Shown one piece after another: positions 3,354 to 21,745 of a stretch of 64,000 bases of DNA; position 1 is the first letter of the stretch; each line of letters begins with the position of its first letter. The DNA lies in contig OX597819.1 of the NCBI GenBank assembly GCA_951406725.2, positions 117,738,001-117,802,000 of the forward strand, written 5' to 3'. A program made the translations under genes and the position numbers. This stretch comes from Octopus vulgaris (Eukaryota). The notes under the pieces are model-generated. The model did not search any database. It worked only from the letters and a program-made list of their open reading frames with translations, and was not told where the DNA came from.

Positions 3354-3551
3354 ATATAGTTAATCCAAACATGAAAACACAACAACGCGAGGACGTGGAA
3401 CAAGTATAGTATTATTGGACGCTCAGGAAAGAAGGAGGGTTTAACGTTTCGAGCGGAGCTCTTCGTCAGAAACATAGGAAAAGGAAAAATCCAAAGAAGA
3501 GAAGACGGAGTAAAAAAATCCCCAACGGTACACACGCGGTCACATTTTGAA
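3354..3551 (-). mobile_element. HHR-bearing short element family H1 (Penelope pLTR-like), copy 1
   Basis: Homologous to 4652-4860, 18480-18694 and 21568-21745; flanked by (TA)n; contains a hammerhead motif. Confidence 0.8.
3439..3473 (-). ncRNA. minimal type I hammerhead ribozyme, canonical core
   Basis: Reverse complement GUUU CUGACGA A GAGC-UCC-GCUC GAAA CGU U^AAAC: stem I GUUU/AAAC, stem II GAGC/GCUC, palindromic ACGU stem III. Confidence 0.75.
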
Positions 3552-19356: not shown

Positions 19357-20777
19357 ACGTTGAGCTATATTTACTTCACCCACGTGTTTTGTTTTAATAA
19401 AAAATCATATTTATCATTTAGAATTCAATTGTAGACATTTTTCGTAAATTGTCTTAATATTTTACATATTTTTCATATATATTTTACATATATTTCGTGA
19501 ATTTTTTCTTCTGTGTTTACATTCATTGCAATGGATGGCTTTTAGTTTAAACCCAGGTCAGGTTAGAATGAACCGTTCTGTATATTTACTGAAGATGTAG
19601 AACATTTTTTAATGTGGTCTTCATTTTAAAAATGGTAGAGCATAGTGTGGGGGGGGATTTGGTTGTTATTTCTAGCAAATTGATCAACCATTACCCCATT
19701 GGATCATTTGCTGATGTGAATAAGTAAACAAACACTAAATGACGATCATTCCAAGATGATCATTCCAGTTGTGTATTCAACTGAACTGGTTACACATTCA
19801 ACTGGTACTTATTTTATCAATCTCCAAAGGATGAAAGGCAGTCTTCAAATCCAAATTCCATCTAGGTTGACTTAGCTCTTCATCCTTTGAGGATTGATAA
19901 AATAAGTACCAGTTAAATGTGTAACCAGTTCATTTCATCAGACAACTGGAATGATTATCCTTTAGTTTTTGTTTACTTATACATATCAGCAAATGAGCCA
20001 ATGATGTAGTGGGTGTTGAATTTGCTAGAAATAATAGCCAAATCTCCCTAACACTATGCTCTAACATTTAAAAAATAAAGAACACATTAAAATATGTCCT
20101 ACATCTTCAATAAAAATACAGAATTGTTCATTCTAGCCTGGCCTGAGTTTAGACTGAAAGGCCTTCGTTGCAACGAATGTAAACAGAAAATCTTCACGAA
20201 ATATAAGTAAAATATATATGAAAAATGCTTGTAAAATATGTAAAATCATCATCATCATTGTTCGACCGTGGTAGAGACAATGGAATTTACTATGCTACGC
20301 CAGACTTCACAGTCCATCATAGTATTACGGAGGTCCTGTTGCTGGATGCCTGTATCCTTGGAGATTACATCAGGGTAGGAGAGTGTGCACCCTCTGGTAT
20401 CGCGAGTAGATGGCTTCCAGAAGAGAAGAGTAGAAACTACCTCGTTTTCAGCTCTACAACAATGTCCAGCAAACTGGATTCTTCTAACTTTCACAAGATA
20501 TGACACAGGTGGTAGTTTTACATATATCTGTACTCTGGTTGGATGACGCTTCCACGAGAGATTTTGAGCTCTCATAAGGAGGCGAGTGTAAGTTCCATCC
20601 AACCGCTTCTCAAGCTTCTTTGATAACATCATGGTTTCTGAGCCATATCGTAGAATTGGTTCTCTTCTACATATGTAAAATATTAAGACAATCTGTTATC
20701 TACAATAATATTCTAATTGATAAATATACATTTTTATTAAAACAAAACACGCGGGTGAAATAAATTTAGCACAATGT
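19357..20777. mobile_element. large palindromic foldback/MITE with arms of about 480 bp, interrupted by an RTE
   Basis: Left end ACGTTGAGCTATATTTACTTCACCCACGTGTTTTGTTTTAATAAAAA is the reverse complement of the right end (TTTTTATTAAAACAAAACACGCGGGTGAAATAAATTTAGCACAATGT); homology continues to a centre near 19850. Confidence 0.85.
20247..20670 (-). mobile_element. 5'-truncated RTE-clade LINE with (GAT)n tail and 11-bp TSD
   Basis: EPILRYGSET...RLDGTYTRLLM...FAGHCCR...DCEVWRSIV; TSD ATATGTAAAAT at 20236-20246 and 20671-20681. Confidence 0.9.
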
Positions 20778-20909
20778 AAATAAAATCGCATGCACACTGG
20801 GTAGGGTATGCTGGATCATCTATAATAGGTCTAAGTTTTAAATCTTTTGGATGCTGAAATTTTATGCACTTACTTTCTTGTTCGTTTACTGCAGGCTGAA
20901 TATCTTTTG

Positions 20910-21235
20910 CAGCGTCGAAAGTGTTTGTAAGCCATTTAAGAAACACACAAAAGCCGTTCGATTCACTTCAAAATTTAAGTTTAATTCGGCAAAATATTTT
21001 CGTCGCTTTAAGACCGCGACCTGTTCCCTGACAACGGGTTTTTGTCAGTGAACAGTTCGCGGTCTTAAAGCGACGAAAATATTTTGACAACTTAAACTTA
21101 AATGTTGATGTGAATCGAACGGCTTTTGTGTGTTTCTTGAATGGCTTACAAACATCTTCCACGCTGCAATTGTTTTCGTTTCAGCACACGATCTCAGATC
21201 AAATCAATTGCTATGCAAGTACATCTCTGTAAAAA
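20910..21235 (+). mobile_element. hairpin retro-insertion with 13-bp TSD carrying inverted HHR motifs (family H3)
   Basis: TSD TGAATATCTTTTG at 20897-20909 and 21236-21248; inverted arms of about 125 bp (20907-21034 and 21042-21169) plus a unique 3' tail ending in an A-run. Confidence 0.85.
21042..21090 (+). ncRNA. hammerhead ribozyme motif with G3-C8 swapped core
   Basis: UUGUCA GUGAACA G(U)UCGC-GGUCUUAAA-GCGAC GAAA AUAU UU^UGACAA: 6-bp stem I, stem II, 1-bp stem III with palindromic AAUAUU. Confidence 0.65.
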
Positions 21236-21567
21236 TGAATATCTTTTGATTTATGTATTTTCAGTTAGCCGTAGAAGTAAATGGGTTTTGGTTTTAAATT
21301 AATGAGGCAGTCTCTTTCATTATCGGTAAGTGAGGTTTGGGGTTTTGAAACCAGGTTGTTGATTTTCTTCATGATGCGGTGGTCTACATTTGAAGGTATT
21401 TCACATTAGAAGTAGTGTCCTTCAGTTGGTCCTCAGCCAATTCCTTATAGTATACTGCATCCATAATAAAAGTGTGTGCTCACGTTTTGATTCGTCAATG
21501 CTGTTCAGATTAATCATATCCGGATATATTTATGCATAAGTAATCTTTGGACTACCTATACATAAAT

Positions 21568-21745
21568 ATGAAAACATAAAGAGAAAACAAAACAACGCGA
21601 GGCCGTGGAACAAGTATAGTATTATTGGATGCTCAGGAAAGAAGGAAAGAAGGAGTGTTTAACGTTTCGAGCGGAACTCTTCGTTAGAACATCGGAAACA
21701 AAGAAGGGAAGACGGAGGGAAAAAATCGCCAACGGTACACACGCG
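21568..21745 (-). mobile_element. H1 element copy 4 (core CUAACGA, G5A)
   Basis: Homologous to 3354-3551. Confidence 0.8.

What the first reader, a model, noticed from the sequence alone, without database searches (positions are those of the whole stretch)
20897..21248. Hairpin retro-insertion carrying a hammerhead with a swapped G3-C8 core pair
Seen: a 326-bp insert splits a Penelope RT between KIHKSKD and IQPAV and is flanked by a 13-bp TSD. It consists of inverted arms of about 125 bp plus a tail. The plus arm folds as a type I hammerhead: stem I UUGUCA/UGACAA, core GUGAACA, stem II GUCGC/GCGAC, GAAA, and stem III of 1 bp with palindromic AAUAUU. The minus arm carries a second copy (core GGGAACA) that keeps the same G3/C8. 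Established: canonical CUGANGA has a C3-G8 Watson-Crick pair, compensatory G3-C8 swaps can retain cleavage, and PLEs carry minimal HHRs and inverted pLTRs. Inference: a non-autonomous PLE or retrozyme-like family whose ribozyme standard CUGANGA searches would miss.
Basis: partly seen in the sequence, partly recalled or inferred. Interest (0 to 1): 0.85.

Follow-up and report, generated by a model that had tools for sequence, protein, structure and literature searches.

The report
Swapped-core hammerhead in octopus Penelope element
This insert is a back-to-back double copy of the front end of a Penelope-like jumping gene whose thousands of copies carry a hammerhead-shaped RNA with two paired core letters swapped, while its sister element keeps the usual pair, so it is likely a natural new hammerhead variant, though self-cutting is untested.

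Summary
The 326-bp insert, 13-bp duplication and inverted arms are real. The insert is the pLTR end of an autonomous Penelope-like element (PLE; RT plus GIY-YIG, about 4.3 kb), not a separate retrozyme; its tail is the first 30 codons of that element's ORF. The G3-C8 core is family-wide: 6,272 matches; only 14 lack both letters; none is C3-G8. The sister family (RT 57-61% identical) has C3-G8 at the same place and another relative U3-A8; 11 of 13 pairs show double changes across seven sequences. So it is a minimal type I hammerhead fold with a swapped 3-8 pair, not found in my paper searches (Lünse 2017 unreadable). Both arms in this window are decayed and lock into one hairpin. Cleavage is not shown: 86 of 91 sampled arms run across the cut site, and many start at one point with an extra G (774 G vs 256 A/T), which suggests capped, uncut RNA as template. 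Head-to-head copies pair a +144 end with a +205 end (30 of 36), suggesting twin priming. Two earlier scan notes report G3-C8 cores in PLEs of other genomes.

The parts
20897..20909 (.). Left copy of the 13-bp target-site duplication; its last 3 bases also match the end of the inverted arm
20907..21034 (-). Inverted arm: family positions about +16 to +142, ending at the first (~+144) family 3' end
20985..21034 (-). Decayed hammerhead copy: G3 21028, C8 21023, U4 changed to G, stem I 3' strand broken
21035..21232 (+). Direct arm: family positions about +9 to +205, ending at the second family 3' end (the PLE tail)
21041..21090 (+). Minimal type I hammerhead fold: stem I 21042-47/21085-90, G3 21048, C8 21053, A9 21054, extra G 21055, stem II 21056-60/21070-74 (G10.1 changed to U at 21056), GAAA 21075-78, palindrome 21078-83, U17 21084
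21141..21232 (+). First 30 codons of the element's own RT-EN ORF (MAYKHL...)
   Evidence: L130, L131, L150 continue into the ORF
21236..21248 (.). Right copy of the 13-bp target-site duplication, preceded by three A's that are not family sequence
21238..21381 (-). Host: decayed RT fragment of a different Penelope-like element, part before the insert
   Evidence: 46% to the L094 element, E 4e-8; no match to the insert's own ORF
20758..20853 (-). Host: the same decayed RT fragment, part after the insert (LKLRPI motif)

Best explanation
The insert is two head-to-head copies of the pLTR end of an autonomous Penelope-like retroelement, whose family carries a minimal type I hammerhead fold with G3-C8 in place of C3-G8; the fold is likely a slow, dimer- or protein-assisted self-cleaving ribozyme, and the insert likely arose when both nicked target strands primed reverse transcription at two internal sites of capped, uncut element RNA. 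Shown: element identity, family-wide G3-C8, C3-G8 in the sister family, two fixed 3' ends (+144, +205), a 5' pile-up with an extra G, 11-14-bp duplications, decay of both arms here. Inferred: transcription starts at position -1, about 22 nt before G3; the extra G is the copied cap; the GIY-YIG domain cuts the two strands about 12 nt apart; one 3' end primes at +205 and the other at +144; the two cDNAs join at their 3' ends. Inferred from engineered mutants: a G3-C8 core cleaves, but more slowly than C3-G8; pairing of two AAUAUU palindromes would supply stem III. The predicted cut lies 56 nt before the ORF start and would remove the capped end, so cut RNA would not be the template of these copies. 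This genomic copy is likely inert.
For: Autonomous parent: copies with upstream sequence run into a GIY-YIG domain (Pfam PF01541 above cutoff); a 1,025-codon open frame; pLTR-ORF-pLTR units with motifs 4,261 and 4,965 bp apart. Family-wide core: 98 and 96 of the first 100 listed matches have G3 and C8; 14 of 6,272 lack both, 0 are C3-G8; in 71 arms picked by a downstream anchor G3 is in 70 and C8 in 69, and shared variants fall in loop II, in the flanks, at CpG sites, or keep a wobble pair in stem I. Covariation: sister family B (branch 100/100) has C3-G8 with double changes in stems I, II and III; L280 has U3-A8 and is sister (100/99) to L282 with C3-G8; 94% of cells paired, 11 of 13 pairs with double changes, 0 of 500 shuffles. 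Insertion anatomy; extra G 774 vs 256, control position 16 of 100. Literature: C3G/G8C partly rescues a PLE hammerhead, which needs the protein, and uncut RNA is the substrate; two internal RT starts make the tail (PMC11167929).
Against: No cleavage data. Only 2 of 91 arms start within +56 to +60 and both sit at inversion joints, so there is no genomic trace of cut RNA. Read data were contigs of uncertain type and show no ends. The seven aligned motifs were chosen because they fit a hammerhead descriptor or by eye, which inflates; L281 had about 880 bp downstream and no motif, L289 was left out as weak, L283 has A in place of G12. Sister B and L280 have C at position 9, a departure from the catalytic consensus, so the group may tolerate weak catalysis. 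Conservation inside the family could also reflect promoter or protein-binding constraints. Arms mostly share subfamily marks (16 of 17, 17 of 17, 15 of 15), which fold-back synthesis also predicts. RNAcofold did not give the dimer as minimum-energy fold.
Confidence: 0.7

Rival explanations
1. The motif descends from a hammerhead and keeps its fold, but works as a protein-binding, promoter-proximal or translation element and no longer cleaves at a useful rate.
For: 86 of 91 arms cross the cut site; sister lineages have C9; cleavage is dispensable for PLE insertion in vitro and no RNA ends were found at the site in another PLE (PMC11167929); PLE minimal hammerheads are weak in vitro (PMC4209133).
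Against: U4, G5, A6, A13 and A14 are invariant in all 7 aligned motifs and G12 in 6 of 7; the 3-8 pair, a contact of the active fold, stays Watson-Crick in three forms.
Confidence: 0.25
2. A separate non-autonomous or retrozyme-like family that amplifies through tandem or circular RNA cut by the hammerhead.
For: Short copies far outnumber long ones (7,501 matches of a downstream 25-mer, against 470 of an upstream 26-mer). L152 holds a head-to-tail array of at least 7 units; L148, L150, L151 and L152 share or approach a shortened derivative. Retrozymes are proposed to derive from pLTRs (10.64898/2026.07.22.740005).
Against: Short copies are identical in kind to the autonomous pLTR and end inside its ORF; ends are set by -1, +144 and +205, not by the cut site; 71 of 72 sites are not head-to-tail.
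Confidence: 0.04
3. The inverted arm arises by fold-back (self-primed) DNA synthesis followed by endonuclease resolution at +144, not by twin priming. This is a rival for the insertion step only.
For: Arms mostly share subfamily marks; joints often use self-complementary sequence; self-priming and EN resolution are the published proposals (PMC3846280; PMC8557442).
Against: Single copies also end near +144 (11 of 33 by my reading of the table). L215, L219 and L222 have arms that barely overlap, the +205 arm stopping about where the other begins. L055 has arms from two subfamilies. The +144 arm reaches further 5' in 20 of 28 pairs.
Confidence: 0.3
4. The 5' pile-up marks a splice acceptor (branch-point-like and pyrimidine-rich sequence ending in CAG) behind a tiny first exon, not a capped start site. 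Rival for that step only.
For: The upstream sequence resembles a 3' splice site; introns occur in pLTRs of other PLEs next to the hammerhead (PMC4209133).
Against: Upstream of the extra G no letter is shared (T 12, C 6, A 5 among 23 cases), so an exon would be at most 3 nt long.
Confidence: 0.12
5. A MITE-like DNA element or chance hairpin; the hammerhead reading is accidental.
For: Long inverted arms with a duplication; Rfam finds no hammerhead.
Against: 33 of 72 sites have one arm only; variable joints; link to an RT-EN ORF; cross-family covariation.
Confidence: 0.01

Closest known systems
[quoted passage not shown]
   Same: Place in the pLTR; extra nucleotide after position 9; G10.1-C11.1; palindromic stem III; U17 common; copies on opposite strands close together.
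   Different: G3-C8. The 56 representatives in its Fig. S3 start with C3 or U3, none with G3; the named core variant is U3-A8. The extra nucleotide is G here, H in the published consensus.
PAc (Poseidon, Anolis) hammerhead and internal RT initiation (Frangieh 2024, PMC11167929)
   Same: Hammerhead at the pLTR-ORF junction; two internal RT start sites inside the ORF start define the tail; AT-rich targets; uncut RNA is inserted.
   Different: There G3-C8 is an engineered double mutant with partial activity; here it is the natural state. The ORF starts 56 nt after the cut site, not inside stem II. The parts I read do not describe a cap-like G or paired use of the two sites.
Natural U3-A8 hammerheads (Perreault 2011, PMC3088659)
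   Same: Natural covariation of the 3-8 pair.
   Different: The passages seen name only U3-A8.
EN+ PLEs with a CX2-5CxxC linker (Neptune, Nematis; Craig 2021, PMC8557442; Adineta Penelopes, PMC3846280)
   Same: C-terminal GIY-YIG, linker zinc finger, inverted 5' pLTR, optional tail, pLTR that includes the first codons, short duplications, (TA)n targets.
   Different: Linker spacing (7 aa) is like the Nematis rows and unlike Neptune, but the RT has about 70 extra residues between motifs A and B' (131 vs 62 aa); clade not settled.
Non-LTR retrozymes (10.64898/2026.07.22.740005)
   Same: Type I hammerhead in a short pLTR-derived unit; one tandem array seen (L152).
   Different: Defined by head-to-tail units; this copy and 71 of 72 sampled sites are single or head-to-head.

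Membership tests
Minimal type I hammerhead of PLEs | Three-way layout open at stem I, with paired stems I and II | tested here: met
   Family copy: 7-bp stem I, 5-bp stem II, z -3.49; double changes across lineages. Not met by the two decayed window arms.
Minimal type I hammerhead of PLEs | Core C3 U4 G5 A6 N7 G8 A9 as written | tested here: not met
   G3 and C8; 0 of 6,272 matches are C3-G8.
Minimal type I hammerhead of PLEs | Watson-Crick pair between positions 3 and 8; U4 G5 A6 A9 and G12 A13 A14 A15.1-U16.1 kept | tested here: met
   G-C here, C-G in 5 and U-A in 1 of 6 relatives; other core letters 97-100% in 71 arms.
Minimal type I hammerhead of PLEs | Extra nucleotide after position 9, G10.1-C11.1, palindromic stem III, H17 | tested here: met
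   Extra G; G-C; AAUAUU; U17. The window plus arm has lost G10.1.
Minimal type I hammerhead of PLEs | Located in the pLTR of a PLE | tested here: met
Minimal type I hammerhead of PLEs | Self-cleavage (dimer or protein-assisted) | not testable with these tools
   No raw RNA reads offered; no genomic pile-up at the cut site.
EN+ Penelope-like element | Single ORF with RT and C-terminal GIY-YIG | tested here: met
   YVDD motif and PF01541 above cutoff; Pfam RVT_1 did not match the 530-aa part scanned.
EN+ Penelope-like element | pLTRs in partial tandem, inverted 5' copy, optional tail | tested here: met
   the tail is about 60 nt here against 30-40 published.
Nematis or Neptune clade | CX2-5CxxC linker finger | tested here: met
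Nematis or Neptune clade | Groups with named members in an RT tree | not tested
   No named reference proteins were available as tool sequences; motif look-ups in the Craig 2021 supplement gave no match for GAIG.
Non-LTR retrozyme | Head-to-tail units each with a hammerhead, no coding parent sequence needed to explain ends | tested here: not met
   ends lie inside the parent ORF. L152 is an exception.
Non-LTR retrozyme | Abundant circular RNA | not testable with these tools
   Contigs only.

The most novel reading that the evidence does not exclude
A natural, active G3-C8 hammerhead, fixed in a successful retroelement, belongs to a PLE group whose 3-8 pair has switched among C-G, G-C and U-A. 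It acts as a gated switch in the 5' leader: cut RNA leaves the copying pool, while capped uncut RNA is copied from two internal sites by both target strands, which would explain the inverted pLTR, the optional tail and thousands of solo pLTR ends in one mechanism.
Probability: 0.25. Interest if true: 0.8.

Novelty: new variant of a known kind. Interest (0 to 1): 0.58.

Why it matters
G3-C8 is known from engineered rescue mutants; the natural covariant named in the papers I could see is U3-A8. A family of thousands of copies fixed for G3-C8, beside a young sister family with C3-G8, gives a natural pair for testing how much catalysis PLE hammerheads need, and shows that CUGANGA-based searches undercount them (some PLE groups are reported to lack hammerheads on such searches). 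The copy anatomy (extra G at one start point, +144/+205 pairing, about 12-bp duplications) turns the open question of how PLE inverted pLTRs and tails form into a direct experiment with an existing in vitro system.

Tried and rejected
Rfam: no hammerhead match at E up to 10 in window 20600-21600 or at gathering score in 5 loci, including two with canonical cores, so the blank is uninformative. Sequencing runs: no RNA holder listed on record; four guessed-RNA runs were contigs and show no ends or joint at the cut site; not used as evidence. Cleavage trace in the genome: none. Third family in the genome: a search with a distant protein returned 75 matches whose places and scores fit families A and B; loci were not cut, so one or two unlisted places are unchecked. 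A3-U8 among 6 of the 14 double variants is read as two ordinary transitions, not as selection. Dimer by RNAcofold: not the minimum-energy fold. Metagenome relatives: of 26 loci, 5 were aligned; L284-L286 repeat L283; L281 had no motif; L289 (weak U3-A8) was used in the tree but not in the pair count; L295 gave only loose hits; most others lack downstream DNA. Seven rows at +25 are one amplified composite and were collapsed; four of the 72 sites and five of the 19 pairs are that composite. Literature: searches gave no report of a natural G3-C8 hammerhead or of a cap-derived G in PLEs; Lünse 2017 (hammerhead variants of PLEs) and Przybilski and Hammann 2007 (3-8 pair exchanges; recalled) are not held and may already describe it.

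Full report
1. Observation. The insert, the 13-bp duplication (20897-20909, 21236-21248), the 128-nt arms (91% complementary) and the 66-nt tail are as described. The host is a decayed RT fragment of another Penelope-like element. The plus arm has G3 at 21048 and C8 at 21053. Against the family, it has lost G10.1 (U at 21056); the minus arm has lost U4 and the 3' strand of stem I. Neither arm folds better than shuffles, an intact family copy does, and the whole insert folds as one hairpin (-183.6 kcal/mol) in which the hammerhead stems have zero probability. The genome is an octopus genome: protein P0001, labelled Octopus vulgaris by its source, matches G000 at 100%.

2. What the insert belongs to. 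A pattern with positions 3, 7 and 8 free has 6,272 exact matches, the reversed control 0. Copies that extend upstream pass through about 1 kb of microsatellite-rich sequence into an ORF with a YVDD RT motif, a CX3CxxC linker and a GIY-YIG domain. Copies that extend downstream continue into the start of the same ORF: the tail of the insert is its first 30 codons. Two loci hold pLTR-ORF-pLTR with the motifs 4,261 and 4,965 bp apart, both with stops or frameshifts; one locus has a 1,025-codon open frame lacking the N-terminus. So the insert is the pLTR end of an autonomous EN+ PLE. Inverted pLTRs with 8-10-bp duplications, an optional tail and pLTRs that include the first codons are published PLE features (PMC3846280, passages; PMC8557442, passages). 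The clade is unsettled: the linker spacing is like the Nematis rows of Craig 2021 Fig. S2, but no tree with named references was made.

3. The core. Numbering: +1 is the A after the CAG upstream of the motif; G3 is +22, the predicted cut follows +57, the ORF starts at +114. Of the first 100 listed matches 98 have G3 and 96 C8; of all 6,272 only 14 lack both and none is C3-G8. In 71 arms (of 100 anchored downstream; those reaching +16 or further 5') G3 is in 70 and C8 in 69; shared variants lie in loop II, in flanks, at CpG sites, and at one stem I position that keeps a wobble pair. The family also has the extra nucleotide after A9, G10.1-C11.1 and a palindromic stem III, the marks of PLE minimal hammerheads (PMC4209133, main text parts 1-2 of 4; supplement file 2 parts 1-2 of 3; file 1 could not be searched).

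4. Covariation. A sister family in the same genome (RT 61% identical over the region searched, 57% over RT-EN) has at the same place C3-G8, with double changes in stem I, stem II and stem III. Of 26 metagenome loci, L279, L282, L283 and L290 have C3-G8 and L280 has U3-A8; L289 has a weak U3-A8 form. The tree joins A with B (100/100) and L280 with L282 (100/99) (11 rows, long outgroup), so the pair changed at least twice independently and stayed Watson-Crick each time. On seven aligned motifs 94% of cells pair and 11 of 13 pairs change on both sides, against 0 of 500 shuffles and much lower slid controls. Caveat: the motifs were picked by fit to a descriptor or by eye, which favours this result; the A-B comparison is anchored by position and does not depend on that. 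B and L280 have C at position 9, so this group departs from the consensus at a second site.

5. How such copies form. 100 arms were sampled by an anchor at +71 on contig C1; 91 remain after collapsing repeats. 3' ends fall in two groups, near +144 and near +205, both inside the ORF start, as for the two internal RT starts of PAc (PMC11167929, parts 1-2 of 4). 5' ends: 39 at -7 to +2, 41 at +3 to +57, 6 further upstream, 5 at +58 or beyond. Where copies begin at -1 the preceding base is G far more often than chance although the template has C: 774 G against 256 A/T genome-wide, against 16 G in the first 100 rows at a control position; no letter is shared further upstream. I read this as a copied cap at the transcription start (cap-derived G in LINEs is recalled, not checked); some of these G's also fit the target or the inverted arm, as microhomology would give. 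Of 72 sites, 38 are inverted, all two-arm cases head-to-head; 30 of 36 pair a +144 end with a +205 end, one pairs +144 with +144, none +205 with +205. 22 of 72 have a non-simple duplication of 7 bp or more, most often 12 bp (control 12 of 300); 27 more lie in simple repeats. The +144 arm reaches further 5' in 20 of 28 pairs; L215, L219 and L222 have arms that hardly overlap; L055 has arms of two subfamilies. This fits priming by both target strands at the two sites (twin priming in L1 is recalled as the analogue). Fold-back synthesis remains possible, since arms mostly share subfamily marks, which co-active subfamilies would also give.

6. Does it cut? Not shown. Engineered C3G/G8C partly restores cleavage (PMC11167929; PMC8495972, one passage); a G3-C8 variant is reported to be more active with G17 than with C17 (PMC3884650, passages), and this family has U17, which is also common in ordinary PLE motifs. 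86 of 91 arms cross the cut site, so uncut RNA is the template, as in PAc in vitro. The cut would fall 56 nt before the ORF start; cleavage-linked translation has been shown for viral 5' UTR hammerheads (PMC13725137, passages), a lead only. I put useful cleavage, slow or protein-assisted, at about 0.65-0.7.

7. Novelty. The natural 3-8 covariant named in PMC3088659 (passages) and PMC4209133 is U3-A8; none of 56 listed PLE representatives or the motifs listed in Craig 2021 file S2 has G3. Searches found no natural G3-C8 report. Lünse 2017 was seen only as a reference in PMC6765202 (passages) and could overturn this. PMC6155905 (passages) added nothing. The retrozyme preprint was read in parts 1-2 of 5; its supplements are closed. 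Two unchecked notes of this scan describe G3-C8 cores with one extra nucleotide behind PLE RTs in other genomes; no look-alike of this DNA was on record.

8. Verdict. A real, family-wide, covariation-supported G3-C8 variant of the PLE minimal hammerhead, in the pLTR end of an autonomous element; this genomic copy is a decayed head-to-head insertion. New variant of a known kind; interest 0.58.

Noticed in passing
L103 333-3326 (-), P0001 and homologs: This PLE group has about 70 extra residues between RT motifs A and B' (131 aa vs 62 in the host-type element; 127-135 in 101 of the 102 homologs where both motifs were found, of 120), at the place of the telomerase IFD, in a C-terminal-EN element. 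Craig 2021 reports an IFD for N-terminal-EN clades only and shorter. Possibly an unnamed clade.
   Followed up: partly
L249-L278 (for example L254 193-4120): Very young sister family B (copies about 99% identical, open frames of about 1,310 codons with an Asn-rich insert, tandem units about 4.6 kb apart in L258/L266/L271). Its hammerhead has C3-G8 but C at position 9 in all 51 motifs listed.
   Followed up: partly
L152 1755-3083: Head-to-tail array of at least 7 units of about 180 bp, each with the G3-C8 motif and a (TA)n spacer: a retrozyme-like array derived from the pLTR.
   Followed up: no
L148, L150, L151, L152, L183: Shortened copies that stop about 90 codons into the ORF; L150 and L152 (and the 5' end of L183) share one joint to a new pLTR start, suggesting a non-autonomous sub-lineage.
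   Followed up: no
L171, L174, L200, L202, L203, L206, L223, L238: One head-to-head insertion with the same joint recurs at several places on contig C1, so it was amplified as part of a larger repeat.
   Followed up: partly
window about 3430-3475 (-), C3 at 3469; related sequence near 21655-21690 (-): A canonical C3-G8 minimal hammerhead match in another repeat; the copy near 21670 looks decayed.
   Followed up: no
window 20255-20695 (-): 146-codon open stretch resembling the end of a LINE ORF (label recalled, not tested), next to the host RT fragment.
   Followed up: no
L279 4965-5017: Relative with C3-G8 core but U15.1-A16.1 in place of A-U.
   Followed up: no
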